DNA of 64,000 nt, from contig CM120647.1 of assembly GCA_051362555.1 (NCBI GenBank), positions 19,816,651 through 19,880,650 on the forward strand, in the 5' to 3' direction. Each line of letters starts with the position of its first letter. Position 1 is the stretch's first letter. Shown here one piece after another: positions 1-38,282 of this stretch. The notes beneath the pieces were generated by a model. It made no database searches and had not been told where the DNA came from. It worked only from the letters and a program-made list of their open reading frames with translations. This DNA comes from Lingula anatina. Taxonomy: Eukaryota > Animalia > Brachiopoda. Position numbers and translations under genes: made by a program.

Positions 1-290
1 TTTATCACTTCCAAGAAGTGCAATAACAGTGCCCTTAATACAGTGCCTCATTCAAGACGGGGTTTTCAAAAGAAGAATTGTTGACCAATTTGTTCATTAC
101 AGTGACAAAATCGTTTTTATTTATCTCAATAAAAACGCCTGCAGTGCGATCTCTGTGATAATTAAAGCATGTAGACTACTGATGCACTTATTACAACCGC
201 TTTTTAATCACTTTAAAAATAAGACTAGATTTTCATACAAAGATACAGTTTAGAACCGCCGATTCAAAAATTACACGGCAAAGCAGGTAA
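1..290 (-). promoter_or_regulatory. Upstream region of a further C/D-like paralog lying left of the window
   Basis: tcacttccaagaagtgc..gtgcctcattcaagacggggttttcaaaagaa..gtttagaaccg matches 17804-18085 and 23123-23360, which lie ~105-390 bp upstream of the C and D start codons. Confidence 0.7.
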
Positions 291-2264
291 ATCCAGAATA
301 TAATGACAATAATAATAATTTATTGATCATAACAAGCTCTCTAAACTACAGTTTTACATGTACATAAGTTCGCACATAAGCTTAAATAAGTATAACTTCT
401 TTAGATCATTATAACATCAAAATGCATATAAGCTAACTACGTGAGACATATATCTCACAATAGTTAGGCACAATCTTATAATACTGGATATAGTATTATT
501 TGCAATATGCATTTGTTACTTTGACATAACTGACAGACTGTAGGCCCTATAAACTTGGTCACTACTGATGCACTTGCATGACACGAGAATTTGTATTATT
601 TTGCTATCATCACCAGTGCCTGATAGTCCAGAGAATCCTGACAGGGAATATATACACCACCCAGCAAACGATAATACTGATGATAATAATAATGCACTGA
701 GACATTATAATAACACAAAGAACTTAGGCCTACTAGAGAGCTTTCAGCTTCTTACAAAGACAGAAGAGGAGAGAAGAGAGCGATTTTTTTTAGTATAAGC
801 CCTTTTATACCGGTACAAGTTTGGCTAGTAGGCCTACACGTTCGCCAATCAAAGTAAATTATACAATGAACCGTCCTACCTGTAAGAGAGTGGTATCACG
901 CAACGTTACAGGAAGAGGTTCCAACTAGCACACCGGACTGTACTTTACTTACAGAGGCATCTGCCGGTAACAATACAAAACAATCTCAACTAACACAACA
1001 CAGGTACTGTATAGGTGCACTTAGAAAGCTTTTTATTCTGAGTCAGGAGAGATGGTACTGGCCCCATTCTTCCTTGCAATTTTCGCCATCACACCCTATC
1101 TATCTACACGGACCCTCTTTGTCATTGCATCCTCTACACAGAAATTATTGTTGTTGTCACCCTTACCCTGGTGTCCCATTACTATTGTGCTTCACGTAAC
1201 TTTACATGTACTGTATATGGCCTGTATGACGTATGTGACAGACACTTAACTTTGTCTTAGCAATGGAACAAATACACATGTTAATCAGAAATGTTTTCGT
1301 GTAGTTTTGTTTGTTGCGGTGGGTCTAAAGATCGCATTGGCATGGAGGTGGGGGACTGGAGGCCATATCTGACCTTCAGATGACCTGCTCAAAAGTTTAA
1401 AGGACCGATACAGATGGCTATATTGCATAACGTTAAATGGATTTTCTCTGAAACTTTGCCTATTTTCTCCTGAACCCCAAGGCAAAGTAAGTACCTCACA
1501 CAAAACAGTGGAGAAAATAACGATCAAATGATAAGTTTTTAAAATCACTTAAGGAAAAAAAGCGCAGCATTTTTTTGTCTCAACTTTTGACAAATTTTAC
1601 GTAAAATACAGAAATAAATAGATATTTAAAAGTATTTTTTTTAAATTTGATACCGAGGTATGAAGGTTAAATGATTATTTACTGTAATAAAAAAGATAAT
1701 AGTTATAAATGCTTTTATATCAAATTTGGTTTCACCATTTCATTACATGAGGTTTTATAAAAAATAAGCAATACAGACACTACTCTGGGATACTTTACGC
1801 ATTACAGGAAGTCAACCTCTTATTTATTTATTATTTATTTATTTATTTATTTATTTATATTTTGTAATTCTAAATTGACTCTGATTAATAATTTCACTTT
1901 ATTCTCACAAAATAGTGCTCTCCTATGTAGATAAGAATAGGAGATAAACTGATAATCATAAATATTAATAGGAATTACATGAACTGCATCATTCTAACAA
2001 TGAAGGTTAAGAGCAGTAATTGCAGATGTAATTTCAAGACTCCCCTTCGATGATGTGTGGGGACTAATGCTATATCAACCATAACGTACGGTTTTTACTT
2101 TTTTAACTTTTCAACTTTTTAACACGATTTAAAATTTTCTATTGACTCGGGAGTCTGGGCGCAGGAGGTCGATTTTGTTTCACGTGTTTGTGAAACTCAC
2201 ATTGTCTTTAACACTCTGGCTCTGCATTTTCAGCACCGACTTTTCAATCTTGCTGGGCATTATT

Positions 2265-4003
2265 TTATAGTAATCCCACCCTTTCTTCATTCTGTTGGTA
2301 GTTTCCCCTCTTCACTTTAGGCAAGCACAACCTAATTTTTACCAGGAGTTCATCTAGATATTTTTCCATTTCATTTCGAGCAAGTGCGTTCCTTTCTGCG
2401 GGCCACCTGAGTTTTACGGTAGGCTTACAAAACGTGCCGTCCATTAAGTCAAGGATCAATTTATTTGTTTCATCCTTTTTAAATTTATCTCGTTTAATTT
2501 TCTGGAGGATGATTGCAACGATTTTCAACTTTCCAGCATTTACCTGGGTTTGTGCCACTGCCAAAATGTCTTTGTGTTTCGGTGTAAAATAATTCTCGGA
2601 GACGAGCATGATGAACAGTCTACTTTGCCTTACTATTTTATCTAAGCTGTCTAAAATTGAACCTGAAGTAAGAAAAAAGAAATTATGCTAATTTAGTTAT
2701 GTTTACTAATTAACACCGATTAAGGTGGTTGGAGGTCTGCACATTTTCATCCATGTAAGTAGGACTGTGTGAAATCAGATCATTATTTGTTTAAAGCTCA
2801 TCGAAAAAAGTTAAACTTTTGTGTTAAGTAGGAAATGTTTACAGTGCGTTTACGATGGCAACGACATAAGTACAATGTAAAACACCAGCAAATTACCTGA
2901 AGACCACAATGAACTTTTTAGTATAATTAAAATAATTTAATCGAAGAAAAAATATAATGTGTTAACACAGATGTAACTACATCTCTTTACCCCCAACGTT
3001 ATCAGTCTGCTGTACCACTTTGTAATCATCTTTTAGGCGTTGAACAAGCTCCTGTACGCATTCTTTTGCATCTTCCTCTGGCCTTTCGTCCTCAGTCTCA
3101 CAAAAAGAAATGACCACGTCATTCACATATGAATCTGTCGAAATAAATAAGGAAAACAATAGTAACAAATAATCATCATTTTCCATTTGTCTAATTTTGA
3201 ATTTTTTTAAAAAATAAAACTAATTTTCTAAATATATATATTTTAGAAAAGGGTCCTTCTCCAAGTAAAAGTGAAATAAGTATTTCGATTCTTTACTATT
3301 CCAATATTAACTTAAATAAATCCGTGAATAGTCTTAGTAATACATGTAGTATACGCGAACATCAAATATCACTATTGCAGTTTTTTTGGGTAAAGAGGCA
3401 AACTGCTGTAAAATAACATAACAAACAACATTGCCTTTTGCTTCTGCAGCTTCCGTGAATTGGTTCCACTTCAGAACGTAGAGGTTGTTAGGGCGCTTCA
3501 GACACAACACTCGAAGACCGGTTGCAGTCAGAATAACCAGTGTCAAGGTTATAACAGGTACTATGATGACCCACGGGAGGTACAACTTGACAATAGCTGC
3601 AATGGTAGATGACATTAAACGAATGATACATGATGACAAACGTAACATAATGTGCTTTATCCAATGACTGAAAAAAAATAATACAGCTGATTCATCAATT
3701 ATAATACGAACAGATTGTTATAACATATAATTCCACATTTTACAATTATAGTCTAACAATTATAAAATACATTAGTGACATATTCAGTCCGATACTGAAG
3801 GTACGTACTCATGCATAAAACAGCTAGTAGTCGACATCTGAATATTGGAACCATGCGACATTGAATCTGTTTTGCCGAACACTTATAATATACATGTATT
3901 TGCTCGAACAATTGCATTTGCATTCAGTGTTTTGGCAGTTAGTATACATAAGTAGATCACTTTGTTTATTTCTCTTATCAGTGAATTGCAGGTGATCCTC
4001 TCT

Positions 4004-4044
<41 letters not shown>

Positions 4045-4379
4045 CGTGTGTGTGTGTTTGAGTGTGTGTGTGTGTCACCACCTACCAGTCGGCAACGGGT
4101 TAACATTCTTCACTTCAGCATTACACCTGTCTTCATCACTACAGTAGCATTCAACACCTTGAAAATCTTCAAACTTTCCACTTCTAAAGTAACTAAAAAA
4201 CCTCTCGAATCCTATCATTCTCAAATCCGTCGAGCCCTTTCTCGCGTGATCCCCAGTCATGTACCGACATCCGTCCCCCTCCGGCCGCTTGGCGGCACAG
4301 AACCGTAAGCTATAGGCTACCGTATGGCTCTGCAATCATTCAAATGATACATTTAACATAATAATAGAAAGAAGAACAA

Positions 4380-4425
<46 letters not shown>

Positions 4426-6204
4426 TATATTGAGTCTAAAACCAAAATTTGTTCCCGAAGATGACCAATGCAAATGCAACGTGATATATACATAATAAAA
4501 AGGCTAGTAAAAGAAATATAGGGTATACCTACGTGATATTTGTCACGTTTTGAGATTGTGTCATTCAACATGTCCAGTTATGTTTTTTACATACAAAAAG
4601 GACAAAATGTCAAAACCCCTAACCCTACCCTTGTTTACGGTATTTCTTAAGAGAAAGTAATTTGAATATCTCGTGATTAACCCACCTCCTGTTTATTTAT
4701 ATGTCGAAAAGAAAATCCCATCTGTACACAGCCTTCACTGCACTCGTTATTGTTATTGTTGTTGTTGTTGTTGTTATTTTGAGGTCTAAATTCTACATTT
4801 TTCCAGTAGACTTAACCAGAACAATGCAACATGAATAAATAAAAATAAAAAAATAGTAAAAGAAATATAGTTTATAGCTACATGACATATATCACCTCAT
4901 TTAAAAGGTATATGTACACTGTATATGCTTTACCTGCAAAAGAGACAAAATGTCAAGACCCCCTTAACCCCACCCCACCCACCTCCTTGGTTACAGTTTG
5001 TTCATAATCGTTTGCAATTCCAGTATTTCGTGTTAAAGGACCCGTTCACATAATAACCATCAGTCAATGTAGATCGATCTAATTCTGCGTGTACTCTTGC
5101 TTAGAGCAATCGGCTAAACTGATGACAAACCTCTTGGTTCTAGAGTGCTCATGTAATCATCGGCTTTTGTGTTTTTTACCCAACACCATTAGGAGGCATA
5201 GGGCCTATGTCATTCAGTGCAGCTGATTGCGCTCAACAAGTCTCCGCAGAGTTGAATCGAACTAGTTAGACCGACGGTGGCTATGGGGTTGGGGCCTATC
5301 TCACCTCCTGTTTATTTATATGTCGAAAAGAAAACCCCATCTGTACACAGCCTTCACTGCACTCGGCGGTCGTGTTCACGGTCGTGTGGCTGCCATTACA
5401 GCGCACGTCTCCTAGTGGGCCCAACACACTAACGCCATCTATCTCAAGGTATTTGCAGTCGATGCACAGAATGCCGAGAACTGAAATTAAGTGTTGTGTT
5501 GATAGCTAATCTCCAAAGCATTTGTGGTATTGATTTGTTTATAATTCTTTTTTTTCTTCTCTCTGCCTGTCAGTCTGTCTGCCTTATCATTAGCAACTAC
5601 AAAATTAGCAATTAATCCACTCATTTCCAAGACCAAAAACCAATATGATAAAAAAATAAATAAAAAGGAAAAATAGACGATATAGAATCAAATGTGTTTG
5701 TTTAGTCTATAAGTCCTCTTTATGGGACAAAAATATTATATAGGACTTCTTTGTTTTTAAAGAATTACAATATGTGCAAAAGACCAGGACAATTACCAGG
5801 ACAATATACATATGTGTGTGTATGTGTGTGTGTATGTTTGTGTGTGTATGTGTGTGTGCGTGTGTGTGTGCGTGTGCCCCCTTTCCACAGCCCACAGCAA
5901 AAAACTAGCTCCTGGGCAGTACTTTTTGGTAGCTTAAAATCTAACATTTTATTTGTGTTTCACTCCTTCGTTTACTAGTTACTAAAAGACAAAAATAATG
6001 GACTTAATACCGATACGTTTTTGTTCCAGATAGACTGAATTTTTTTACATATAAAGGTATCTTTGCTACAATTTCACATGTTTAAGACATGATCAGATGT
6101 TAACGAGACGTGACCGTTTTGTTTGTGACCACATTAGAGATAACCTTACCTCTGCGGTTCAATGTGACGAGAAGAAATACTGCAACCGAACACAGCTGCC
6201 GCAT
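2265..6204 (-). CDS. Receptor A: signal peptide + Ly6/uPAR (LU) domain + TM + TIR, ~392 aa, 6 exons (6150-6204, 5305-5480, 4086-4329, 3435-3596, 2991-3134, 2265-2662)
   Basis: Exons join in frame (1179 nt). Signal MRQLCSVAVFLLVTLN. LU domain with 10 Cys (CIDC..C..CSEGC..C..C..CYC..CN). TM PWVIIVPVITLTLVILTATGL. TIR motifs YVNDVVISF, RQSRLFIMLVSENYF, KIVAIIL, LRWP. One inferred GC donor at 3433-3434. Confidence 0.85.
4433..4746 (-). repeat. Intronic duplication in receptor A, including a partial copy of exon 2 (4685-4746)
   Basis: 4685-4746 is nearly identical to 5305-5366; 4433-4640 resembles 4781-4995. Confidence 0.8.
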
Positions 6205-6818
6205 GCTGGATATTTTCAGGTGCCTTTAGCTGAACAAGCCTCAGAATGAATAAAGTAGGACACATTTTTACACCGCATCAATGCGCCTGTAAAACCCGCT
6301 TTTGTAGGACAGTGGTTTACATGACAAATAAACTTGAGGGTCTTTCAAACGCGACCCCGTGTGATGTTATTGTGTTTTTTAGCGATGTGAAAAGATCTAA
6401 ATATTCTCCTTTGTTGATTTTGGCTATTATTTATGCTTGACGAGGTGTATTTACATAAGATTACGGCATGCCGCGTCTATATTGAACATTTGAACTGGGT
6501 CGGGTATCATGCCACTACCCATGCTGCAGACTGCTGGTTGAGAACAATGGTTTTGACTTTAAGAGTCCGGAAAATAAATACAAAGCTTCACACAATATTT
6601 CGCCATACCATATGATGCTTATTCATTGAAATCTATTCCAATAACGTACATATATAAGGTATACTTCTTACGTAAGTGATACATGTATATGTCAATGGCA
6701 GTAATATAGGAAATGTTTTTCTGCACGATTTTATGCAACCTCGATTTTTAGTTCCACATACAGCCAGTTTGGTGCAGACGTAGACAAAGATACATCAATA
6801 TCGCTCGTTGCCATGAAT

Positions 6819-8268
6819 CTAGACATCTAATTCAATTTGTTCTTGGTGCAGACCGTCTCCGCCAGCTCTTTCAGCTTGGTTTTCAAGATTTGGCATGAAG
6901 TCCGCGATGTCATTAAAAAACTTATCCATAGCGTCTTCATTAGGTTTTTCAAAACACGGCTGTTTCATCAGTTTTCTTACAGAGGCAAAGTCTTTATTTA
7001 GTTTCAAATTGCGATCAAAATCTTTCAAAATTATTGGAATTATTCTGATTTTGTTGTCGTTTAGCTTTTTCCTGACTCTTCCACATAGGTCATTCACGCC
7101 ATCCATATCAAAATACTCCGGCGAAACGATCATGATGAATCGACTGCTGGTTTCAATGGCAATGTCTTCCTTTTCTGGAAATACAACATATAGATTTCAT
7201 GGTCTACTCTGATATTCACTACACATATACAGTGTCTGTAGATAAAGAATAATGGAATAATGTTTTAAAACTGCTCGTTTAAACCGAAAAAATGGAAGAT
7301 TTTCAACAATAAAAACACAGCGTACATAAGGACTTTTCACCTTATGGCCCCAAATAGTTAAATCTGTTAACTACACAAGTTCAGAATTTATATCTAAGCC
7401 TATACTATTGGAGCTACTTTTGAATATGAAATGGCACATACGTCTTGCAATATCCCCGACCCTTTCGTCAGGTTTATATATTCTAAAACCGCGGCGCTCC
7501 AACTCTGGTATAAGTCTTCTTTTTACAAACGCTCTGTCCTCTGGTACGGACTCATTGTACGAAATAAAGGCATGGAAGTAGAATCCTAGAAAATAGAGAA
7601 GCTTGTTATAATGCATGACGGAACTTAATCACAAAGTTGCTACTATATACAGCAGCTTAATCGCATCACCCAGACGGAAGTTGAGTACTTCTTGCAGTCT
7701 GGAATGGTCTGTAAGCAGTTCACCATCTTTACTATCTCCTTTTCAGTCTTGACAACAATATTTTAACTTCCATAAATGTTCGGAAAAAGAGGCGACATAT
7801 GAAAAGCGTATATGACTCTATTTCTCCACTGAGAAATTCAACACGTTGGGGTAGCATACATTACCACATTTTTTTTTTTTTTGTATTGTAGAATGCATGC
7901 CTCGTGGCTGGATCTCGAATTGCCTTAACCGTTACACTCGTTGATTCTTACCTTTTATTTCACCGGTTTCTTTCCATTCATCTGAAAGAGTTGAGGCAAC
8001 GAACATGAACATACATGTACATATATAAGGCTTCTGAACATGGATATTGGACGATAATTTTTTTTATTAAAAATACCATTATGGATACGAAACATATGAC
8101 GATGCCAGATGTTTTATCCAGACAACATTGTTTTTGTTGAAAAATAGAAAATAAATAATCTGAAAACAGTTGTTCATCTTATTAATTAAGTTTTGTTCAG
8201 TTTTAACTTCAATAATTCGACTTAACGACTTTGATGAAATCTAAATGAGAATAATGTTTATTTCTTTA

Positions 8269-8304
<36 letters not shown>

Positions 8305-11253
8305 CTGATTCACCCAACTGCTGGGAAAGCATTCGTTACAATACAAAATGCAAGTCACGATGGTCTTAAGGCGAGGGGTTTACTGTTAATGGATGCCAGT
8401 CATTACCTTTGGGGTCTCCTTCCTTCAAAACATCTGGAACAAATCAAGCAGAGATTATTGTACATAATAATAATAATAATAATAAATTCAGTAACGGCAT
8501 ATTCCTTTTAACATATCAATAAGCCTTGCAGGATATTTAATTTTATTGAAAAATCTGAAGTTAAACAATCTTATAAAAGAACAAACAATACATATTGAAC
8601 ATTTACTGAAACCTCGATTGAATTAATCGTTGTAATCGTCCAAATTGAAAACTTCTAGAATACATTTTAGATACAGATGGTGGAAATGACAACGAGACAT
8701 TCGCGCTGTTTTCTTGAAATCGTAATGATTATACACATGCATAGTTAGAAAATAAAATAACCGAACAACAACAGTCAAACGCTAATTTCTCACTCACATT
8801 GAAATCATAGGTTGCAAATCTTGTAGTTGGCCTGGCCTTAGGGTGATAAAATCGTAATAAACTTACTATCGCCTTCAAAATGTCTCGATCTTGCATCCAG
8901 ATTTGCTGTAAGAATTTTGCCTTTCCGTAGTGCCCAGATAAAAACTATTGCTGCTGAAACTATGATTACGATGCCCACGGAAACACAAGGAATGATGATA
9001 TTCCACGGAGGTCGCTCCCTGGGGATGGCTGCAATTAATGGTCAATAAATATTGATTTACAAAGTAAATTGAAGTCATACATATTAACGTGTGATCACAA
9101 ACCATATCATTGTAATATGTGTTATTATGTAGGATCATTTGTTAAATTAACCATTTTGCAAAGGAGTTTCTGCATCAACATACAGTACATACGTGTGAAA
9201 ATACCAACAATTTAGTATATTTCGCTATTTAATTTCATTACATTTCATAAAGACGGTAGTTAAAATAATTTGATGGCAGTGAATGATTAGCATACGTGGT
9301 ACCGCAAGGTTCCTTTGACAAAGATTTCAAACAAATGTGATGTTGTGTTTTTTTTTTCGTCTCATCTTCCTTTCATTTCTTTCATTATTGCCTGTACTTA
9401 AAAAAATACTGAAATTATACAGAAACTATAGCCGATAGTAACTGTCAACTGTGATCAAATAAAACCAAAAAAATACCCGCTTTGGAAAAACACGCAATGC
9501 CTACCCGTTGGGAGTGGGCCCAAATTACTGATATCTTTATTACACATATCACCGTCATTGCAGAAGCATTCTTTTCCCTCGATGTCCACGACAGTGAAAA
9601 ACGGAAAAATAGGTAGCAGTTGATGTACGTCCGAAACAGCCTTGTGACTCAGTTCCTGAAACAACGAACTCTGCGCATCATTCGACATGTCCCGGCATCC
9701 GGGGGTCACCAGGAGCTCTACTGCGCAGGACCGGAAGTGAATTGTCATGTTCACAGCTTTGTTTACCTAAAAAAACGGCAATGTATTACAATTACATTTT
9801 TAATTCTTTTCTCTCTTTACTGCCTTAGCTAAAATTGGGTGTTTCTTCAAATATCAGTGTTACATTAAGGATATCCTTAACCTTTGCCAATAACTCCGTA
9901 TTTACTGCCTTTTATACTTTCTTTTGTGTAAAAGATAAAAAGTCAGTGTTCAGTGATTAAATTAATTAACATTCTCACACGTTTCACCTTAAGGGGGACG
10001 TCATAATTGCGATTTTGAAAACACAGTTAAATATGAAATACTTTCATAATAAAGAGAGCCATTCCGACTTTCTGTCCTCGCTAGCTTTCATCATAACAGG
10101 CCTAAATATAGAATAGATATATTTACCGATTTGTATACAGTTATCATAGTAACTTGGAACTGGATGCATGCTTCGCTGCAATTTCTGGTCACATTTATAG
10201 CGGTCGGGCTGTCCATGCAGCGGGGATCAGCTTGTAAAGCTCGGTTCATAAGGGCTATGGCACTCGTCTCATTACCCTCCAGATACATACAATCTACGCA
10301 CTGTAGTGCTCCTTGAAATACAAGATAATGAAGTAATATTTTAACCAATTAATTAAATGAGAAAACCGGCATAATGTGTAAAATCATAGCTTGTGGATAA
10401 TATAACAAATCTTACACGTGCTGGCTTTAACAGAAAAAGCTTCATCATGGTCACCGCCTTGATCTTGTATAAGTAAATAAATAAATTACGCTGAAAACGC
10501 AACTATAAAGATCAGTACGGCTGTACATGTAGGCCTATGCTACTGTAGATAAGTGCCCGAACTTTTGGCTTGTGTGTTTTCTTCAGGGACTTCTTCGGGG
10601 ATTATTCTGATTTTAGTCTCTGAAAAACGCACACAAGTCGACAACTTGGGCTTTAGCAGAAGTACGTAACAGCAATATCATTTCAGATTCTCTCAGTAGG
10701 CCTACTACATGTAACTTGGTTTCTTATGACATTAACAGCGGTCCTTTAATACGATTCGTCTTATTCGCCCAGGGAAATATCAAAATAGCCGTAATTTAAA
10801 ATAATCAGTATATCCGTTGCATGACTATGAGTGTCATAACTTACATGACTGTGTGGCAAACAATGCACTGATACATTTTCTACAGGCAGCACTCACACAC
10901 ACTAGGCTTACACCCCTTTCCCCGAGATAAGATCGACCTACTTTAGATCGACCTAACTCCCTGGGGGTTCACTCTAAATAGCTGTCAGCCGGGCGGACAC
11001 GAAAGTTAATTACCCCCTTACAGCTTGTAGTAGGCGGGACGGACATTTAAGTCGGATTATCTGAAAGTAATCTAGTGAGACTCCCGCGGGGATAGATCGA
11101 TCTAAAATCTATGGGAATAGAGCCTTAGTATCAAAACTGCTAGTTTTCAATTTAAGTAGTTTCGTGAAGAAGTTCCTCACGTTTTTACCAGTACTTACCA
11201 ACATTCGGAATAACTACAAAGGATAAAAAAGCAAAGACCTGCCATAAGTTCAT
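6819..11253 (-). CDS. Receptor B: signal peptide + LU domain + TM + TIR, ~406 aa, 8 exons (11199-11253, 10127-10311, 9505-9766, 8867-9028, 8407-8433, 7952-7981, 7442-7585, 6819-7174)
   Basis: All introns GT-AG and in frame (1221 nt). Signal MNLWQVFAFLSFVVIP. LU CVDC..C..CSEAC..C..C..CFC..CN. TM PWNIIIPCVSVGIVIIVSAAIVFIWAL followed by RK. TIR FHAFISY..FVKRRLIPELERRGFRIY..AIETSSRFIMIVSPEYF..IIPIIL. Exon sizes 55/162/144 equal those of receptor A. The two micro-exons are less certain. Confidence 0.88.
10911..11124. mobile_element. MITE, PIF/Harbinger-like, copy 1 (intron 1 of receptor B)
   Basis: Homologous to 30305-30522; terminal agatcga(c/t)cta inverted motifs; TTA on both sides. Confidence 0.65.
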
Positions 11254-11399
11254 TGCTGATTCTTAGTTCTTACACTTAGAGTACTGTCACTACAGCAGAT
11301 TTCTTCTTGGACGTGTTTACAGAGCGCATGCGCATACCGCAACGTGATAACATTGGCCTATGTAAAGCGAAACAATTGAGCACAGTTTAAAAAAAAGTT

Positions 11400-12355: not shown

Positions 12356-12432
12356 TATCTGCACGTCCACGATACTGGGTAATAACAACTGGACATGGGC
12401 ATCAAACTTTCAACATGGCGCCGATCTTGTGA

Positions 12433-12782
12433 GCACGCTTTCCGCTTACATGTAGAATATGCATCGTATTTTGCTTTATATTCATAAATTGTGGAAATTG
12501 TAACATCAAACGCATACAAAAATTATCAGGAAATAGTTCACCTAAGTTCACAGAGTTGGGAAAGCACGCTGCAATCCTGAATCGGCGGTTAAACAGCGAT
12601 GACATGAAATCGTCTTTCGTGCGCACGCTTTCCGCTTAGAATATGCATCGTATTATGCTTTATATTCATAAATATTAGAAAATGTAACATTAAAAACATA
12701 AAATTTATCACCTAACTTCACAGAGTTGGGAAAGCACACTGCAATACTGAATCGGCAATGACGTGAAATCGTTTTTTCGTGA
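12433..12782. repeat. ~190 bp tandem duplication
   Basis: gcacgctttccgctta..agaatatgcatcgtatt..ttcacagagttgggaaagcac occurs twice. Confidence 0.8.
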
Positions 12783-13034
12783 GTTACACACCAAAAAGTG
12801 GGAACCGAATATAGCTAATTTAATTAAACTCATTTAATATTCATGTGACCGGGTCATTACGTCAATAATGGAAATCTTTACAATTTACGCCGAGCCCCTC
12901 GTACGAATCTGAATGGGAAAACAAAATGTGGTTTCCCTGTCGTGCGTGACTGAAGAAAACGTAACAGGACTGGGTCATAACATCTGTGATTACACTTTCC
13001 GATGAGAGGATTTACTTACAGATTGATGTTTTAA

Positions 13035-13413
13035 AGGTACATACGAACCGAGCATCGGTGGAGCGTGGATTCCCAGTATTAAACACATGTAAACCACTTC
13101 TACTAGTTTCTTATACGACTCTAATAAATTCGACATGCCCAGGGATAAACTGAATAAATCACCCGATCAGCCATAAAAGAGCTTTAGAGTGCTCCTTTCT
13201 TTAAATTTTTGGTTGTCAATTTAACCTACTTTCGTAACCTACTTTTCTGCCCCATTGACATACAGCATAGAATGCTAGCAAAAAAAAATCTGTTCAAACA
13301 TCACTTTCGGGTAAAATTAAACAATGCCTTTTAGTAATTCTTTTATACTACTTGAAACTGTATGCTGGGATTTGGTTGGTTTTTGTGACAAAAAATTGAC
13401 TTTGTATGTATCT
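13035..13413. mobile_element. TTAA-flanked MITE (Kolobok-like termini)
   Basis: TTAA|AGGTACATAC ... GTATGTATCT|TTAA; 9 of 10 TIR bases match. Confidence 0.55.
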
Positions 13414-13819
13414 TTAAAAAGAGAAGAGTGTATTTTAGGTATTTAAATCCCGAAATTGAACGATTTGTATAGTTCACGTGTATGAGAGATAACACTTTTT
13501 AGTAAAGTTGAAAACGGAAGCGATGGTAATGCACTACAATTCGTTTTCTTCACCTATCAAGTTTTGGCGAAGAGCAATTTTTGTTTTACTCTAGCGTGTG
13601 TGGGTACACGATCCCTGTGATGACCAAAACATGACAATACTATTCTGAGACCTTTCTTTTCCCTATTGTACTGCAAAACAGGCTGGCATGTCTGTGCCCA
13701 GATTTTAACCCTGATTTAGTGTCTTTTTTCTGCTAAGAATAATAAAGTTTAAAATACACAGAAATGTTTGGAAACAAAAAAAAAATTGTTCAAAAATGTT
13801 CATTAGCTTGGTTGTTGGA

Positions 13820-14009
13820 TATACATGAAATTCTCAAACACAAACCTCATTTTTTTTTCATACCGTTAGCTTACCACGCTATACCACCTAGCGGTCAGTG
13901 AGTATGAACAACTTCTCACGTCAGTCTGATGAAGGCCTTCGACCAGGTTGGCCGTAAGCTAACGGTATGAAAAAAAATTGAGGCTTGTGTTTGAGAATTT
14001 CATGTATAT
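13820..14009. repeat. ~55 bp inverted repeat with a hammerhead-like motif; possible Penelope-like element remnant
   Basis: catgaaattctcaaacacaa..taccgttagctta is mirrored at 13955-14009. Spacer contains CTGATGA-aGGCC..GGCC-GtAA-GC-TA. Confidence 0.5.
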
Positions 14010-14766
14010 AAAGAAATTGTTGTAAAAAGACAAAACCACCCCCTTTCATATGAACGCACCCCATCGAAATCCAACACATAGGAATATTTTGACAGATTTT
14101 CAAAGATGATAACCCATTCTTTTTGTCCAGTAAAGATATGCTTGGAGACCCTCACGAATCATCCAAGGTACTTTTATATAAGATCCAAAGACCTTGAAAT
14201 GAATTTATCCATTCGTTCATCCATTTTTAAAATCTATTTGGCGGGTTCCAGATTTAATCTACCAACAAAGCAATATTTTAATTGATAATCGTGTTGTTTA
14301 TAATTTAAAATATTTTATACTGAATCCAAATCAACTCAGTTTTTAGCAACAACACAAAACGCCATGAGACGGAATAGTGACAATTAAATTATTCACATTT
14401 GTTAAGTTAAGAACCATTCCAGCATCAGTTACATGAAACTAATACAGCGCATGTTACACAATCTATACGGACTCTGTCTTATAAAATACTGACATATTTG
14501 AATGCAAATAACTTTGTTTAAGCTGTTGCTTTAAAAAGCATATAATTGTTACAAGCTTATTTACACAGAATATTATAAAACAATTTATCAGTGTAAGATA
14601 TGTGCATATATATGTGACCAAAGCAAGAACCCCAGCATTCACACATACAGTGTAAGTGCACAGCAGTCACAGATACTGGTAAGTGTATATGTACCCCTGT
14701 ATATGTATATGTTATGTATATGTATATGCGTATGTATATGTTATGTACTTGTGACCGATCGTCATC

Positions 14767-16401
14767 TTAATACAAATACCATAACACGCAGTACGTGGCA
14801 GCCATTAGGGTAGTTAGCAACAGTTCTAGATTGCACACTCCGCGGCCGCTTGAAGTTTGAGGCTTTTTTGTAGAATGGGGCGTGGTCGACGTGGTGGACA
14901 CGTGGTTGTTTTGCGAATGCGTCACACTTGTTGATGTGATGCCATTTGGAGTGGTTTTAGTGGGCGTGGTCGTAGATGCACCGGAAACTGTTGTCATTGC
15001 TCTGGTACATCCATCCTGGTTACATGTGCAGACCTCGGCTGATGTGGTGCTAATTTGTTGATCGTTTGAACCAAAAGAAAACAACCCAGTCAAGGCTGCG
15101 TCACTGTTTGTCAATCTTGAACATCCGTCAGCTGATTTACTCGCCGAGCACATCCTCTCCGTCATAGCCAAGGTGAAGCTCACGAATAACTAAGTAAAAT
15201 GAAAGGACTTTGTAAAAATGTAAAGAACCGTATCTGAGAACAAACAAGTGTTATTCATTTTGTTGTTGTTGTTGTTGTTGTTTGCATTCTTTAGGAGGAT
15301 AAATGAGAATCAATATGGACTTAAACTGGCGACAGTACAGACAGTTGTCATTTGTGTGTTTATAACTGTATTTTTGTTAATGTACTTCTAGAAATAAATG
15401 TATGTTACTACAACTGCCAATATTCAAACATTCTATTTCATCAGAAATTAGGACAACTGAAACATCATTTATTTACTAACTTATTTGTTCGATCGTTCGT
15501 TTATTTATTTATTTATTTTATTCATTCATTTATTTTTTAATAGTTTGTTTGCTATTCCCTACCACTGACATCCTCCCTTCGCCCACAACGCTCAGACACG
15601 ACCCGCGGCAGCTGACAGTCTTTGTCTGGGATGGATTGGACACACACTTTTGGTCTGTTTCCCCCAGAAACAAGCCGCCAACAGTATGCAGAATTGACTG
15701 TGTCCAAGAGTCGTCTGAGCTGTATTGCATGTACTCACATCTGGGGCACTGCACTGCTGGAACTGTAAGGATTTGCATAAATAATGGATGGATACCAGTA
15801 AATAACCACCTAAATGAAATTATTAATTCAAAAGAAGACAAAATATCATCTTTTTTGCAGTCTAACAAACATGACATGTGTATATGTACATGTGTATATT
15901 CATCTCTCTGCTGTCCACTCTACAATAATTGCATTTGGCTGCGGAATCTTAATTCTGGGCTAGGTTCAAGCCCAAGCCGGGATAATTAACCGACGCCAAA
16001 GACTTTGTTACATGTTTATTATCTTTGTCAGGTATTGTAACAAAACGAGATGTTTTTTAATGCATATAAACCATGCAGCGGAGAAGGTCAGAGGTGGTGG
16101 AGTGAGTTGACTAGAAGGTCCATTAACTAAAATCATTAACCTGACTTGACCGCCTCTCGTCCAATCGGGAAGCGTCAAAATTCATGATCATGTAACACTC
16201 TTTGTAGCTTAATCGAAGGGACATGAAAATTTTGTTAAGTCTCGCTGAGGGTCTGCTTTTAATAATTTTAAAGTGGATTGTGAAATGTGAAAAAAAAACA
16301 TAAAACCTCTCTAAATATTACTAGTAAGTTACTAGTTTACTATTGAGTGAGACTAAATAAAGTATGATAATTTTTTCCAAAAAAGCAAGATGATGATATT
16401 A

Positions 16402-16440
<39 letters not shown>

Positions 16441-17697
16441 TACCCCTACCTTGTGGTAATGTCGCAAGACTCGTGGTATCCACATTACATCGGTCTGAGT
16501 TACACACACACAGGCGTCCCTCCATGGCGGTCACAATGGACACGTTCGAGAGGATGTTCTGAATGTCCTCCAGATTAGCCAAGGTCAGATTCATGCACCC
16601 TTCCTCGACACTGGTCGTTGCTAAGCAACCGCGTACCCAGTCACGTGTGTTAACAGCGGAGTTGGCGTCCTAGAGAGATTCATATTTTTTTTTCACATCT
16701 TTTAACACAACAAGTGGTGTCCACAAGCAGTACGCAGATAAATATAACATGTAAAACTTACACATTCTTATACCCCGTTTTCTCTGTTATTATTTTTAAT
16801 CTAATTATTTTTTTACTTGTCATTTCACAGGGAATTTAACATGAGTCAAGTCAGTGACGCAAAGTTTTTTTTATATAATATTTGCACAATTTTGACTTGT
16901 CCCATTTTTCACTGTTTATTTCCATGGTACCTATCATTATGGCAATGAAAAATTGATATGGAACAGTTATGTAAATATTACACAAAATGTCTACCTGTAT
17001 ATTTTTTTCTGCAATGAAACTTGTCAATTTTTATTTTGAATAATTGGAAATACAGCACATCTCCTAGCTGCAGAGAGGAGAGAGAGAGAGCAAATTCAAA
17101 ACAGACTGACTTCCCGTCGTCGGCTCTTCCCCAGAAACCTACTACAACACCAGATACTTACCGTTTTTGTTAAAGACTGGGTGACCCTCAGATAGTAACA
17201 GGACCCACTACACTCGGCAAAGCTTGTCGCCGCAGAGGGGTTGTCTTCGCATCGCTGGTCGTAGTTGTGGTAAAAGTATTCTAAGAGGGAACTTGCCTTA
17301 TTTCCAAATGACTGGCAGTCAAGGCACTGAATAGCTGTTCCTAGTTTCCAAAAATTGATAAAGTTAGATAACAAGAAAGAACCTCGCTCTCACCCTTCGC
17401 CCTCAATTTAAGTTTGAGAGAAGGGGGGGGGGGGGGTCAAATAATAAACAACACTTCTTTAAGCAGTCTTGAAATGTAAAATAAAACTGGTTGGTTGTGC
17501 AAAACAACCATGGATCAGTCGCGCCTCTTCACCTCATCTTTCTATCATGTAGGCCCCTACTGTATGTACGATTTATAGACAACACCATTACGCCTATATT
17601 AATATGTATATGTAGCATGAATGTGCGCAAATACATGTCATTTACCTGACTGCACAAAACACAGGAGGACAACCAAGCTTTGATAAAAAGAAGCCAT
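14767..17697 (-). CDS. Gene C: secreted/GPI-type protein with two LU domains and a Ser/Thr stalk, ~355 aa (exons 17646-17697, 17162-17340, 16450-16669, 15563-15756, 14767-15189)
   Basis: Signal MASFYQSLVVLLCFVQSG. LU1 CLDC..CVCNSDRCN. LU2 CPRC..CTCNQDGCT. Thr-rich stalk, then SSG and hydrophobic tail LELLLTTLMAATYCVLWYLY-stop. In-frame GT-AG splicing. Confidence 0.88.
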
Positions 17698-17873
17698 GTT
17701 GAGACGTGAGCGCTTTCTGCAGTCAGCACAGAAAAATACACCTGGTGTCATTTCATTTGTCTCGTTTTTTAAAACAGAAAAAAAAAACGCATGCGCATTT
17801 TCGTCACTTCCAAGAAGTGCTAAAAGTAGTACTCTCAGTGGAGTGCCTCATTCAAGACGGGATTTTCAAAAGA

Positions 17874-17928
<55 letters not shown>

Positions 17929-19153
17929 CGTTAAAGTGGAAAACCGTTTTTGTTGATCTCAGGTATAACGTCTGAAGTGAGATTTCGTTTACAAAATGTA
18001 TACACTACTGGTACACTTATAGGCACAAAATAACCGATTTTAATCACTTTTGCCGTTTAGAACCGACGGTTCAAATCTAGGCAGCAAAGTGACCAAGTAC
18101 AAAATACATACACCAACCAACAAATGATAATGATGATGATGATGATAAAACACCGATGCAAATTTATAGGAAAGGAACTAAAGCCTGTAAATGAACAGAC
18201 ATACATGTCAAAACTTATAGAATTAACCTTGAGACAACACAGTATATGAACGCTCTTCAGTCACACCTGGAAAATGTCAATTTGTGAAAAATGACAAAAA
18301 TTCACAAACGCACACCCACACACTAAGAGACAAAAAAGCCATCGGTTGATGTTCGATTTCCCAACAGTTTTTAATCTTCTGAATCAATAAAACGTGTTTT
18401 AGTATAATTAACACTGTTGATCGTGTTTGATTGCATTAACAGATCAAAAAATCCAGAAGAGCACATGTTGACGACTGGGACCGTGATTTTCCGTAATAGA
18501 CATGGAAATGCAATGGCGGAGGGGGAAGGGGGGGGGGGATGCTGTGACGTATCCGATTTAAGTAACAAAAATAGCACAGTTTTGCACCGGTGCCACTGGG
18601 CAGTGAGGTAAGCGTTTTAGGACACCAACATTTTCTTGCGTCCATCATTAACCGGATCAATGAAATGCATGTACCCTAGCAAAGTGATTACTTTATTACT
18701 GTACATTATTCCACGTGCGTGCAGTGGATATTGTTACAATTTATTAACTTTATAGTAGGATGGCCAATTTAAGTCCAATAACTTGATGAGACGGAACAGA
18801 GACAATTAAATTATTCACATTTGTTAAGTTAAGAACCATCCCAGCATCAGTTACATGTAGGCCTACTGGCACTGTGTATGTTACACAATCTATACTGAAT
18901 CTGTCTTATAAGATACTGAAATATTTGAATGCAAATAACTTTGATTAAGCTGTTGTTTTGAAAAGCATGTAACAAGCTTATTTACACAGAATATTATAAA
19001 ACAATTTATCAGTGTAAGATATGTGCAAATGACCAAAGTAATAGTTCCAGCACTATAAGGGACACATTCACACATACAATGTGGAGTGCACAGCAGTCAC
19101 AGATACTGGTAAGTGCATATGTATATGTTATGTACTTGTGACCGATCGTCATC

Positions 19154-21491
19154 TTAACACAAACACCATAACATGCAGTACGTGGCAGCCATTATTGTGG
19201 TTAGCAACAGTTCCAGATTGCACACGCCGCAGCTACTTGAAGTTTGAGGCTTGTGTGAAGGATTTACAGTACTTGAACTGTTATCTTTAATTCCTGTGGT
19301 ATATCTCAAAGACAAAGTCGTCGTGGAATGCGTGAATTTTGTTGACCTTGGTGTGATACTAGAGGGCGTGGTTTTTGTGGGCGTGGTCCAAGTGGCAGAT
19401 GATTTTGTGGGCGAGGCCGTCGTCAAATATGATTTTGTAGGCGTGGCCGTGGTCGTAGATGACTTTGTGGGCGTGGTCGTAGATGACTCTGTGGGCGTTT
19501 TCGTGGTCGTAGATGACTTTGTGGGCGTGGTCGTGGTCGTGGTCGTAGATGACTCTGAGGGCGTGGTCGTGGTCGTAGATGACTCTGTGGGCGTTTTGGT
19601 GGTCGTAGATGACTTTGTGGGCGTGGTCGTGGTTGTAGATACAGCGGAAAGTGTTGTCATTGGTCTGGTACATCCATTTTGGTTACATGTGCAGACTTCG
19701 GCTGATGTGGTGTGACTTTGCAGGCCGGTGCCAGTCAAGGAATCCAATGAAAACAACCCAGTCATGGCTGCGTCACTGTCTGTCAATCGTGAACATCCGT
19801 CAGCAGATTTACTCGCAGAGCATAACCGCTCCGTCAGCTTCATAGTGACTGTCACCAATGACTTAGTTAAAGAAAGAAATTATAGTGTAAATAAAAGAGC
19901 CACTTTAGAACAAACAACTGCTTATCATTTTAGTTAGTTTGTCTGCTTTCTGTAGGAGAAATGGATCAATATGGACTTTGATTGGTGGCAGTACAGTTTA
20001 TTGTCATTTTTTCGTTTACATTACTGTGTTCCGCTTAATGTACTTCTGAAAATTTATGTTACTGCACCTGCTACATATTCTATATCATAAGAGTCTCAGG
20101 CAATGGAATACAAAGCAAAACATATCTATTTATTAATGTGCTTGAAATTTCTTGTTTGTTTGCTGGCTCGTTATTTTGTTAGTTTTTTTTAGTTTGTTTG
20201 TTTGTTTATTTTTTTTTTCTTACCATAGACATCGTCCCATCGCCTACAGAGCTCAGACATGACCCGCGGCAGTTGACCGTCTTTGTCTGGGATGGATTCG
20301 AAACACAATTTTGGTCCATTTCCCCCAGAAACCAGTTCCCAATAAGTCCTAGGAGTAACTGTACCATGAAGTCGCTGGAGGTATACTCCATGTACTCACA
20401 TTTGGGACATTCCACTGCTGGAACTTTTGCATAAATAATGGATTAATACCAGTAAATAGATAAATGAAATAATTAATTCAAATTTTTTGTAAACCAATAA
20501 TAATTAGTTGCCCACACCTTAGCAAAATGAAAGTTTTCAGCAATATTGCACCAAATTTAATGTTTGCGGCAACGAGTTTGCAAGAAAATTTATTGCTGCT
20601 TACATTCAGATATATTGCAGCAAATATGCCGTTAATTTGCAAGAAGGAATTGCAGTTTGCAGCAACAGTAGAGCAAATTCGCTGCAAATTTGCAACAGGG
20701 CTGATATTTTGCTAAAAAGTATTATAAACAGTTTTTAACTTTGCCTGAGATCTCCCCATGGCTTGGTTCAACCCTAAACTGGTTAACCCTAACCCTAAAC
20801 CCTAAACTAAATAGGTCCTAATTGAAAGACACCGGAAAATTTGTTACATGTTCAAGATGTTTTCACATATTCATTGTAATTTATTAAGACGCACCGATAA
20901 GTTATTGGTGATGCACCTAAACCATGCGGTGGGCATCGAAATCCAAGATGGCGGAGCGAACTGACTGGGGGGTTCACTTACAAAAAAAAAATGACCTCAC
21001 GTGACTGCCTCTCGACCAATCGGGAAGCGTCAAAATTTATGATCATGCAACACTACTTGCAGCTTGATTGGATTTTAGGGATATGAAATTTCCGTTTACA
21101 GTTGATGAGGGGTCCCCTTCATTACATCAATACGTGAATGAGAACATGTGAAAGAACATAAAGCCTCTGTAAATGTTGCTTGTAAATATTACTAATGGGG
21201 AAGACCTATAACAGTATGATTAAACAGTTCTAAATGTAATAATAATAAAGATAAAAACCCTACCTTGTGGTAATGTCGCAAGACTCGTGGTATCCACATT
21301 ACATCGGTCTGAGTTACACACACACAGGCGTCCCTCCATGGCGGTCACAGTTGACACACTGTTCGGGAGGATGTTCTGAATGTCCTCCAGATTAGCCAAG
21401 GTCAGATTCATACACCCTTCCTCGACACTGGTCGTTGCTAAGCAACCACGTACCCAGTCACGTGAGTTAACAGAGGAGTTGGTGTCCTAGA

Positions 21492-21552
<61 letters not shown>

Positions 21553-23022
21553 CAACATGGGTGGTCCACAAGGGGATAAACAGGTAGGTATTACGTGCAA
21601 AGCTTCGAGTAATTACCAATTTTCACATCCCCTATTTAATGTTTTTTTAAATCAAATTATTTCTTTACATGTCATTACACAGGGAATTTTACAAGTCAGT
21701 GTCACAAACATTTTTTTTTCTGAAACGACCCTTATCTATTAATATTTTGAATAATTAGAAATATAGCACAACTCCTAGCTGCCGAGAAGAGAGAGAGAGC
21801 AGGGCCGTAGCCTGAGCAAAATGCCGGGGGGGTGGGGGGTGGGGGCAGTAAGCGGACAGGAGGGGGCGAAGCCCCCGAGGGGGGGGTGTGGGTTGGGATG
21901 TCCCCCTCCCATGGTGTGGAAACTGTTTTAAAACTGTATGTATAATACTGCATTCTGGTGCCTTTTAACTGTTATTTATTGCTCAATCAGAAGTCAGAAA
22001 TTGTAGGTTTATTTTGCCATAAGTACAGTCATTTTTTCAACACAACACGCCAATTGGACTTCATTTCGTAGATTGTCTCAGGATCAGGAATAACGTTTCA
22101 AAACAGCCCTCCCAGCTTTGTTGGGCAAACAGTCAGGGTAAACAATAACCTGATAACAGCCTGGGGGATCGCTCCCTAAGGGAGGGTGAGCTTTTTGACA
22201 TGAACTGAGTTGGCTAAAAACAGTACACCTTTGTAAACATATATATTGAATGATTGTCTAGTGGCCATGAGTGCATTTTCTTACAGAATTGATACCAACT
22301 TTGCAATTATTTTTTTTTTACCTTTGCGATTATTATTATTATTATTATTAATTTTTTTGCACCTCAAATCTCAGGGGGGGCAGCTGCCCCTCCCCCTGCC
22401 CCCCGGAGGCTACGGCCCTTGAGAGAGAGCAAAACCAGAACGGACTGACTTCACCTCCTCAGCTCTTCCCCAGAAACCCACTGCCACACCAGAGACACTC
22501 AGACTTACTGTCTTTGTTAGAGACTGGGAGACCCTCAGATAGTAGCAGGATCCATGGCACTCTCCCCAGCTTGTCGCCGCAGAGGGGTTATCCTCGCACC
22601 GCCGGTCGTAATTCCGGTAAAGGTTTTGTGAAAAGGAGTCCAAGTTGTAACCAAATGACTGGCAGATAAGGCACTGAATGGCTGTTCCTAGTTTCGAAAA
22701 CTTGATAAAGTTAGATAACATGAAAGACTCTCGCTCTTACGCTTCGCCCTCAAGTTTAAGTTTGAGAAAAGGAGGATCAAATAATAGACAACGCTTCTTA
22801 AATACTCTTGAAATGTAAATACAACTGGTTGGTTGTGCAAAACATCCATGGATCAGTTGCGCCTCTTCAATTCAACTTTCTATCATATATGTACGATTTA
22901 AAGACAAAATCATTACGCCTACATACATACGTACACGTAGCATGAATGTTCGCAAACACATGTAATTTACCTGACTGCACAAAACACAGGAGGACAAACA
23001 AGCTTTGACCAATAGAAGCCAT
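19154..23022 (-). CDS. Gene D: paralog of C with expanded mucin stalk, ~451 aa (exons 22971-23022, 22509-22687, 21264-21486, 20224-20417, 19154-19861)
   Basis: Same exon layout as C (52/179/223/194 nt). Signal MASIGQSLFVLLCFVQSG, two LU domains, TTTTPTKSS repeats, hydrophobic GPI-like tail. Confidence 0.88.
19370..19640 (-). repeat. Coding minisatellite encoding the TTT(T)P(T/S)(K/E)SS mucin repeats of gene D
   Basis: Repeated gtgggcgtggtcgtggtcgtagatgac units of ~24-36 bp on the + strand. Confidence 0.9.
20517..20717. mobile_element. Small MITE-like insertion in gene D intron 3
   Basis: ttagcaaaat..attttgctaa inverted termini; internal tgcagcaa repeats; not seen in the equivalent intron of C. 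Confidence 0.45.
21800..22420. mobile_element. hAT-like non-autonomous element in gene D intron 2
   Basis: TIRs AGGGCCGTAGCC / GGCTACGGCCCT, inserted in a GA run that is duplicated on both sides. Empty site visible in gene C at ~17080-17095. Confidence 0.8.
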
Positions 23023-27693: not shown

Positions 27694-27740
<47 letters not shown>

Positions 27741-33928: not shown

Positions 33929-33963
<35 letters not shown>

Positions 33964-37842: not shown

Positions 37843-38243
37843 ATGACGACTTTTAATAGGATTTTCGTGTTGGCCAGACAGTACTTTCTTTTATTTCTTG
37901 ATTGGTTTTGCCAGACTTTCTTAGGCAGGCGACTCATCCCGCTTACCGAGGAGAGTCTGTTAAAAAAATTCCCTCCAGAAGACCGTCGTCTCTTGCTGTC
38001 GGAAACTCTAACTCGTCGCTGGTGGTACGAAGGATTCACCATACTTTTGAAATGTTTTCGTGAAGATGAGACGTGTACCTTGGCCGGGAGGCAGGTTATT
38101 GAAACAAGATGGACAGAGATTCTCCGAAATCGCTTGGCAATATCAAAGCACTTGGCATCTGTTGACTTGACCAAGGTACGTGTGCATGTGACGTACTGTT
38201 ATATGTTTATATATATTGATCGTTTACGTGTGTGAAACGGTAT

Positions 38244-38282
<39 letters not shown>

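What the first reader, a model, noticed from the sequence alone, without database searches (positions are those of the whole stretch)
1..23022. Signalling LU-TIR receptors clustered with GPI-anchored double-LU paralogs: possible receptor plus co-receptor/decoy system
Seen: at least four co-oriented genes share the same LU exon plan (phase-1 signal exon, phase-0 split inside the LU domain, phase-1 exit after LPTG/LPQG). Two end in TM-TIR and two in LU2-mucin-GPI tail. Known: CD14 is a GPI co-receptor for TLR4, and IL-1R2 is a TIR-less decoy clustered with IL-1R genes. Inference: C/D may capture ligand for, or compete with, A/B, and A/B might heterodimerise.
Basis: inference. Interest (0 to 1): 0.8.

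Follow-up and report, generated by a model that had tools for sequence, protein, structure and literature searches.

The report
Three-finger TIR receptors in Lingula
In the lamp shell Lingula, two genes join a predicted three-finger (Ly6-type) outer domain to a membrane span and a Toll-like TIR domain and likely act as signalling receptors of a design not found in my searches, while the related neighbours predicted to be lipid-anchored are untested as their co-receptors or decoys.

Summary
The anatomy is real. Four minus-strand genes have open spliced frames and one shared 10-cysteine LU exon plan. A and B end in TM-TIR; C and D have a second LU, a Ser/Thr stalk and a GPI-type tail. They match RefSeq Lingula anatina proteins at 94-99%. 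RNA supports 4 of 7 B introns and 3 of 4 D-type introns; A's TM-to-TIR splice is unconfirmed.

The co-receptor/decoy reading is unproven. C/D belong to a wider Lingula double-LU family: six more TIR-less clusters on four other scaffolds. Receptor LUs are LU1-type but not shown to be sisters of C/D. Descent and block duplication of a C/D-B-A unit can explain the clustering.

Among copies the LU is conserved (91-96%) while the TIR diverges (58-84%), and all carry Asp where enzymatic TIRs have Glu. Best reading: scaffold-type receptors for a fixed ligand, possibly A:B pairs. No LU-TIR protein outside Lingula was found, but the two main surveys of Lingula TIR proteins could not be read.

The parts
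2265..6204 (-). Gene A: signal peptide, LU, TM, TIR; 392 aa. Exons 6204-6150, 5480-5305, 4329-4086, 3596-3435 (GC donor), 3134-2991, 2662-2265
   Evidence: Open frame; LU 137/139 identical to RefSeq P0007, TIR 93/160 to P0012; low exonic RNA depth on exons 2, 3, 4 and 6, none on exon 5, no junction rows
6819..11253 (-). Gene B: signal peptide, LU, TM, two mini-exons, TIR; 406 aa. Exons 11253-11199, 10311-10127, 9766-9505, 9028-8867, 8433-8407, 7981-7952, 7585-7442, 7174-6819
   Evidence: Open frame; 96.6% identical over 406 aa to XP_013418738; TIR_2 E 7e-10 for that protein; introns 1-4 supported by reads
14767..17697 (-). Gene D: signal peptide, LU1, LU2, 46-aa Ser/Thr stalk, GPI-type tail; 357 aa. 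Exons 17697-17646, 17340-17162, 16669-16450, 15762-15563, 15189-14767
   Evidence: 98.6% identical to XP_013418758; QVR E 1.8e-4 over the whole model, below cut-off; D-type introns 2-4 seen in X7
19154..23022 (-). Gene C: signal peptide, LU1, LU2, 138-aa Thr/Ser stalk, GPI-type tail; 453 aa. Exons 23022-22971, 22687-22509, 21486-21264, 20423-20224, 19861-19154
   Evidence: 98.9% identical over 351 aa to XP_013418760; little RNA depth in the 4 runs laid
5..704 (-). 5' flank of a further C/D-type gene whose start would lie near position -102, outside the window
   Evidence: 70-84% identical to the flanks of C and D, E down to 1e-31

Best explanation
A and B are likely single-pass signalling receptors whose predicted three-finger (Quiver/Ly6-like) ectodomain is joined to a TIR domain that probably works as a non-enzymatic scaffold. 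Shown: the LU-TM-TIR layout, the LU1-type exon plan, Asp at the catalytic-Glu position, and conserved LU with divergent TIR among copies. Inferred: a signal-plus-LU1 exon block with its phase-1 exit was joined to a TM and two-exon TIR module, then duplicated into A and B. A fixed ligand (conserved or self-made) would cluster them, most likely as A:B pairs, and the TIRs would recruit a TIR adaptor such as MyD88. C and D are predicted GPI-anchored members of the wider double-LU family; they lie here mainly through shared descent and block duplication of a C/D-B-A unit, and any modulation of A/B by them is untested.
For: Open frames and shared exon phases. TIR hits: Pfam; best solved relatives TLR10/6/1, E about 4e-4. 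Three-finger fold: Atlas structure match of D LU1 to a QVR/Ly-6_related cluster, TM 0.61, meeting the naming bar; for the B-LU model, the whole-domain rows are mostly three-finger proteins (AMHR2 Z 5.2, rmsd 3.8, 93 aligned; CD177 and TEX101 Z 4.7). Six further double-LU, TIR-less Lingula clusters on 4 other scaffolds, 5 of 6 with hydrophobic tails. The A/B LUs form a clade (99/98) on the LU1 side of a 100/100 LU1/LU2 split. Asp for Glu in 8 of 8 TIR rows; TIR catalysis depended on that Glu in passages of 10.64898/2026.04.20.719644. LU versus TIR identity: A/P0012 96% versus 58%; B/P0002 91% versus 68%; B/P0003 92% versus 84%. Order A, C/D, B recurs in fused old gene models P0005 and P0013. 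A and B reads occur together in X7, X8 and X9.
Against: No ligand, adaptor or signalling output was tested. A's TIR is below Pfam cut-off, and its exon 4-5 splice has no read support. Window A and B lack the BB-loop Pro that MyD88-using TLRs have (recalled; sequences). Fold Z-scores are under 8, unrelated folds score up to 4.7, and Foldseek found nothing; the model has pLDDT 64. The direction of origin is unsettled: a tree with the receptor LU branching before the LU1/LU2 duplication is not rejected (p-AU 0.12), and a long-branch LU-TM protein without TIR (P0023) groups with A/B. High LU identity among copies may come from gene conversion, as C/D exon 3 suggests (dS 0.06 against 0.35-0.6). Some copies may be haplotypes (1.6% heterozygosity, PMC4595640). 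No NF-kB consensus site lies upstream of any of the 4 genes, but only 0.2-0.5 per gene is expected by chance.
Confidence: 0.5

Rival explanations
1. One reading: C/D are dedicated partners of A/B. They would capture and present the ligand (CD14-like) or compete for it after shedding (IL-1R2-like), and the C/D-B-A unit would be kept together for co-regulation.
For: Interleaved, co-oriented order C, D, B, A, then another C/D flank, and the same order in P0005/P0013. A-, B- and D-type reads in X7, near zero in X1, X2 and X4 at similar letters read. Homologous LU1. The stalk could lift the LU pair off the membrane (inference). A/B plus C/D LU1 as one clade is not rejected (p-AU 0.31). IL-1R2 is also only distantly similar to IL-1R1 (recalled), so 22-30% identity does not exclude a shared ligand.
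Against: Six other double-LU clusters lie on other scaffolds, and one of them (P0014) scores higher against A and B than C/D do (113 and 169 against 76 and 154). Tandem block duplication gives the same order without selection. Co-expression rests on one bulk library with low depth, and C itself is barely covered.
Confidence: 0.27
2. The proteins act like Quiver/Sleepless or Lynx: surface modulators of channels, receptors or adhesion in cis. The TIR of A/B would be a degenerate or non-immune docking tail.
For: Closest families are QVR and Ly-6_related. The TIRs are divergent, with Asp for Glu and no BB-loop Pro in the window copies. No NF-kB sites were found. No dN/dS above 1 in any C/D region.
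Against: TIR frames are open in both genes and in the paralogs P0002, P0003 and P0012, and B-type TIRs pass the Pfam cut-off. The QVR match itself is below cut-off.
Confidence: 0.13
3. B is the signalling receptor, and the real decoy or brake is A: read-through of the weak GC donor gives a membrane-anchored, TIR-less A, and its fast-changing TIR acts as an inhibitor (SIGIRR-like).
For: 2 of 3 RefSeq A-type models lack the TIR (P0007, P0011). The donor is GC or weak GT. A exon 5 has no read depth.
Against: Exon 6 of A has depth in X7 and X8, and 6 reads in X8 join it to a divergent upstream exon, so TIR-bearing A-type transcripts exist. The lack of exon-5 depth may only reflect divergence beyond the 88% cut-off.
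Confidence: 0.1

Closest known systems
Toll-like receptors and IL-1 receptor family
   Same: Type I single-pass layout with a cytosolic TIR; the best solved relatives of the TIR are TLR10, TLR6 and TLR1.
   Different: The ectodomain is one 10-Cys three-finger-type domain, not LRRs or Ig domains; Asp at the catalytic Glu position; BB loop variable among copies.
TGF-beta family type I/II receptors (AMHR2, ActRII, ALK1)
   Same: A single three-finger ectodomain before one TM helix; weak whole-domain fold matches, Z 3.6-5.2; they work as two-type pairs (established knowledge).
   Different: A TIR replaces the Ser/Thr kinase; the LU is about 125-135 aa with helical inserts; no sequence match in the PDB.
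Quiver/Sleepless and Ly-6-related LU proteins (PF17064, PF06579); multi-LU GPI proteins such as CD177 and TEX101
   Same: 10-Cys pattern with CxC..CN end in LU1, signal peptide, GPI-type tail in C/D; structure matches.
   Different: Pfam scores are below cut-off; LU2 of C/D ends in CT; A/B carry TM-TIR instead of a GPI tail.
CD14 / IL-1R2; Hydra bipartite LRR-only plus TIR-only receptors
   Same: TIR-less surface proteins beside TIR receptors (Hydra case from passages of PMC6321704 and PMC8609888).
   Different: No shared ligand or contact is shown; C/D belong to a larger dispersed family and are not cut-down receptors; A/B have an ectodomain of their own.

Membership tests
TIR-domain proteins (PF13676/PF01582) | Pfam TIR score above cut-off, gene B | tested here: met
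   P0001 (96.6% identical to B): 39.9 bits against 28
TIR-domain proteins (PF13676/PF01582) | Pfam TIR score above cut-off, gene A | tested here: inconclusive
   Exon 6 alone 20.4 bits against 21.3, E 5e-4; P0012 E 0.011; aligns with the B TIR at 25%
Toll-like receptors | LRR ectodomain | tested here: not met
   No LRR family hit; the 150-aa Cys-rich domain fills the whole ectodomain
IL-1 receptor family | Ig-like ectodomain | tested here: not met
   No Ig family hit; whole-domain fold rows are mostly three-finger proteins
Ly6/uPAR (LU), Quiver-like | 10-Cys pattern ending in Cys-Asn | tested here: met
   A, B and LU1 of C/D have 10 Cys and end CN; LU2 of C/D has 10 Cys but ends CT
Ly6/uPAR (LU), Quiver-like | Pfam QVR/UPAR_LY6 cut-off | tested here: inconclusive
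   D 22.9 bits against 27.3, E 1.8e-4, model positions 1-86 of 86; no hit for A or B
Ly6/uPAR (LU), Quiver-like | Three-finger fold | tested here: inconclusive
   Atlas TM 0.61 to a QVR-named cluster for D LU1; VIA Z at most 5.2 for the B-LU model; Foldseek no match; all on predicted models
TGF-beta receptor family | Cytosolic Ser/Thr kinase | tested here: not met
   The cytosolic part is a TIR
Enzymatic (NADase) TIR | Catalytic Glu in helix C | tested here: not met
   Asp, with a one-residue shortening, in 8 of 8 A- and B-type rows; activity itself not assayed
GPI-anchored proteins (C, D) | Small-residue omega site, polar spacer, terminal hydrophobic stretch, no cytosolic tail | tested here: met
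   Read by eye: SSG/SSS, about 7-residue spacer, 18 terminal residues with mean hydropathy 1.56 in P0008; no GPI predictor was available
GPI-anchored proteins (C, D) | PI-PLC release from cells | not testable with these tools
   Needs an experiment
Decoy or co-receptor (IL-1R2 / CD14 type) | Binds the receptor's ligand or the receptor and changes its signalling | not testable with these tools
   Ligand unknown; needs binding and reporter assays

The most novel reading that the evidence does not exclude
Lingula built a receptor system of its own from three-finger parts: an A:B heterodimer with a TGF-beta-receptor-like ectodomain fold wired to Toll/IL-1-type TIR signalling, and a GPI-anchored double-LU protein that works as a single-chain trap or presenter for the same cytokine-like ligand. 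The three genes are copied as one cassette whose copies keep the ligand site and vary the adaptor-binding BB loop.
Probability: 0.18. Interest if true: 0.8.

Novelty: new variant of a known kind. Interest (0 to 1): 0.52.

Why it matters
Vertebrate TIR receptors are TLRs or IL-1 receptors (passage of PMC8662601), and invertebrates add shuffled forms. A three-finger ectodomain on a TIR receptor is a further input type, and one whose likely source family survives next door and elsewhere in the same genome, so the birth of a receptor by exon shuffling can be traced. Conserved ectodomains with diverging TIRs are the reverse of a diversifying pathogen sensor and point to a cytokine-like ligand in a brachiopod. 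The appeal is limited because it was found only in Lingula, TIR shuffling in invertebrates is expected, and no function is shown.

Tried and rejected
No whole genome is held for the window, so flanks could not be read; synteny rests on RefSeq scaffold lengths and fused gene models.

Complex prediction of B LU (P0001 20-168) with D LU1-LU2 (P0008 19-284): no verdict, score 0.11 against a mark of 0.34, alignments not used, controls not folded. A:B and TIR:TIR pairs were not tested.

Single-sequence folding of P0008 failed (pLDDT 34). Foldseek on the B-LU model gave no match at E 0.001. The LU profile found 0 PDB sequences at E 10. P0012 gave no TIR hit in the PDB.

A word-based search with B's TM-TIR found only 3 Lingula proteins among 481 candidates, so the donor TIR family is unknown.

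No RNA holder was listed by the index; 7 of the 9 same-species raw-read runs were laid, X3 and X6 were not.

Positive selection in C versus D was not seen (dN below dS in all LU regions). NF-kB site scan: 0 sites at 4 genes, uninformative.

My recollection that the TIR intron position resembles that of IL-1 receptors could not be checked and is not used.

Four look-ups of earlier findings returned nothing. Gerdol et al. 2017 and 2018 are not held.

Rejected: an echinoderm host (my first guess); an artefact or pseudogene cluster; C/D as truncated receptors.
Full report
1. What is in the sequence. I built four minus-strand gene models from the window. All translate without internal stops: A 6204-2265 (392 aa), B 11253-6819 (406 aa), D 17697-14767 (357 aa) and C 23022-19154 (453 aa). 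A and B continue with a TM exon (19-residue hydropathy peaks 2.5 and 2.9) and a TIR in two exons. C and D continue with a second 10-Cys domain, a Ser/Thr stalk (138 and 46 aa; 62% and 52% S+T) and a hydrophobic end. LU similarities beat Cys-fixed shuffles: z 24.6 for A-B, 13.3 for B-D LU1, 7.0 for A-D LU1, and 2.1-5.3 for A/B against LU2.

2. Host and wider cluster. B exon 3 found 3 proteins among 15 candidates, all RefSeq Lingula anatina 'uncharacterized'. A profile of four exon-3 sequences found 7 among 5049 candidates, all Lingula. B is 96.6% identical to XP_013418738 over the same 406 aa, D 98.6% to XP_013418758, and C 98.9% to XP_013418760. One RefSeq scaffold (242,668 bases) carries two B-types, three C/D-types and one A-type. 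Bases 5-700 of the window match the C/D 5' flank, which places another C/D-type start near -102. Two fused old gene models run A-TIR, C/D, B (P0005) and A, C/D (P0013). So a C/D-B-A unit appears to repeat. Copies on other scaffolds may be haplotypes, given 1.6% heterozygosity (PMC4595640, passages).

3. Expression. Seven of nine same-species raw-read runs were laid, at 6-30% of each run. B introns 1-4 of 7 are supported: three joint rows, plus loose ends at 10312 that match exon 1. D-type introns 2, 3 and 4 of 4 are supported in X7; intron 3 was mapped onto C's identical exon-3 end (24 joint rows were not shown). A has low depth on exons 2, 3, 4 and 6, none on exon 5, and no joint row. Six X8 reads join exon 6 to a divergent upstream exon, which by my hand translation ends with a Pro-Gly BB loop. 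A- and B-type reads occur in X7, X8 and X9; D-type in X7, the only one of these three laid on C/D. X1, X2 and X4 show almost nothing on any of the genes, and X5 almost nothing on A/B. C is barely covered. Nearly all reads are under 99% alike (0 at 99+), so they come from other alleles or paralogs. Co-expression is at bulk-library level and confounded with study.

4. Domains. B-type TIRs pass the Pfam cut-off; A's is sub-threshold. A profile of nine rows finds TLR10/6/1 best in the PDB, E about 4e-4. The catalytic Glu is Asp, with a one-residue shortening, in 8 of 8 TIR rows. A 2026 preprint shows that animal TIRs, a Lingula TLR among them, make cADPR and need that Glu (10.64898/2026.04.20.719644, passages), so these TIRs are more likely scaffolds. 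D LU1 matches QVR over the full model but below cut-off. The Atlas model of D LU1 matches a QVR/Ly-6_related cluster at TM 0.61; B's ectodomain matches an unnamed mollusc cluster at TM 0.62 and LU or activin-receptor clusters at 0.43-0.52. An AlphaFold2 model of B's LU (4 sequences, pLDDT 64) had no Foldseek match. In the wide search its whole-domain rows were mostly three-finger proteins: AMHR2 (Z 5.2), CD177, TEX101, ALK1, ActRII and GPIHBP1; unrelated folds reached Z 4.7 over part of the model. The three-finger assignment is likely, and the tools cannot separate LU from TGF-beta-receptor ectodomains by fold.

5. The family context changes the reading. An HMMER search of the LU profile over 1.84 billion representatives gave 14 hits at E 0.001. 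Ten are Lingula: the four seed types and six further double-LU proteins with no TIR, on scaffolds of 915,667 (three), 593,247, 1,058,944 and 888,225 bases; five of the six have hydrophobic tails. The other four are weak (E 3e-5 to 6e-4): two Diadema proteins, a bacterial-type repeat protein (dropped as spurious), and an unnamed LU-TM protein with a Cys-rich tail (P0023). None of these four has a TIR. In a 22-row tree, A/B LUs form a clade (99/98) on the LU1 side of a 100/100 LU1/LU2 split, in a polytomy with C/D LU1 and unlinked members. A/B plus C/D LU1 is neither shown nor rejected (p-AU 0.31). With distant LUs added (27 rows; one identical row removed), the receptors stay among the LU1s (83/90), P0023 joins them on a long branch, and an earlier split of the receptor LU is not rejected (p-AU 0.12). 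So C/D are not cut-down receptors, and origin of the receptors from an LU1 exon block is favoured but not proven.

6. Pattern among copies. LU identity exceeds TIR identity: A/P0012 134/139 against 93/160, B/P0002 129/141 against 98/145, B/P0003 130/141 against 122/145. The first TIR exon, with the BB loop, varies most among A-types. This fits a fixed ligand with varied outputs better than a diversifying pathogen sensor. Gene conversion could also cause it: C/D exon 3 has dS 0.06 against 0.35-0.6 in the other LU exons. C versus D shows dN below dS in every LU region.

7. Mechanism. Most likely (0.5): A and B are LU-TIR receptors that a fixed ligand clusters, probably as A:B pairs by analogy with IL-1R1/IL-1RAcP and type I/II TGF-beta receptors (established knowledge, not tested), and they recruit a TIR adaptor; C/D sit beside them by descent and block duplication. 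Rivals: a dedicated co-receptor/decoy triad (0.27), Quiver-like non-immune modulators (0.13), and A itself as a TIR-less or inhibitory brake (0.1). For the last, 2 of 3 RefSeq A-type models lack the TIR, and window A depends on a GC or weak GT donor.

8. Prior knowledge. Ten full-text searches listed no paper describing an LU-TM-TIR receptor; three that combined LU/three-finger terms with TIR and an invertebrate term returned 0 papers. I saw passages of PMC8662601 (and a supplement search with no QVR/UPAR term), PMC6321704, PMC8609888, PMC4595640, PMC7144542, PMC13409769 and the preprint above; other papers only as listings. Gerdol et al. 2017 and 2018, the surveys of TIR proteins that cover Lingula, are not held; they or their supplements may already list these genes as orphan TIR receptors. 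CD14, IL-1R2, SIGIRR and the BB-loop proline rule are recalled, not from a call.

9. Verdict. Observation confirmed; interpretation partly supported; new variant of a known kind; interest 0.52.

Noticed in passing
window 4683-4746: A 64-bp, 98% copy of the 3' end of A exon 2, with its donor, lies inside A intron 2.
   Followed up: no
window 7587-8867: B-type reads (X8, X9) join exon 4 to exon 7 through a single short insert of 25 letters, suggesting a paralog or isoform with only one of the two mini-exons.
   Followed up: no
window 16450-16669 and 21264-21486: Exon 3 of C and D is nearly identical (dS 0.06) while the other LU exons differ (dS 0.35-0.6): likely gene conversion.
   Followed up: partly
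P0012 and P0023: An A-type RefSeq model has a Cys-rich juxtamembrane stretch before its TIR, absent from window A; an unnamed LU-TM protein (P0023) has a similar Cys string and a PPAY-type tail and groups with A/B on a long branch.
   Followed up: partly
window 10900-11120, 13000-13430, 21800-22400: Interspersed repeats with high RNA depth from elsewhere in the genome; the first, in B intron 1, has a copy at 30310-30516, and an inverted repeat lies at 13819-14009.
   Followed up: no
window 24027-25436 (-): LINE-type reverse transcriptase fragment just upstream of gene C (RVT_1); 25426-25719 is 88% identical to 18499-18789 between C and D.
   Followed up: partly
window 26510-29091 (-), 31764-33979 (+), 37825-42194 (+), 56528-57142 (+): Ordinary neighbours: bystin, a short-chain dehydrogenase, a sulfotransferase, and a hairy/HES gene ending in WRPW.
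   Followed up: partly
window 45301-46910 and 50263-51096: An 800-bp tandem duplication at 94% identity, and a C/A-rich tandem array that gives long open frames.
   Followed up: no
P0014-P0019: An unnamed Lingula family of at least six further double-LU proteins, three on one scaffold; five have GPI-type tails and one a Pro/Gly-rich tail.
   Followed up: partly
P0020, P0022: Diadema sea-urchin proteins with similar long LU-like domains, one fused to fn3 and CUB repeats.
   Followed up: no
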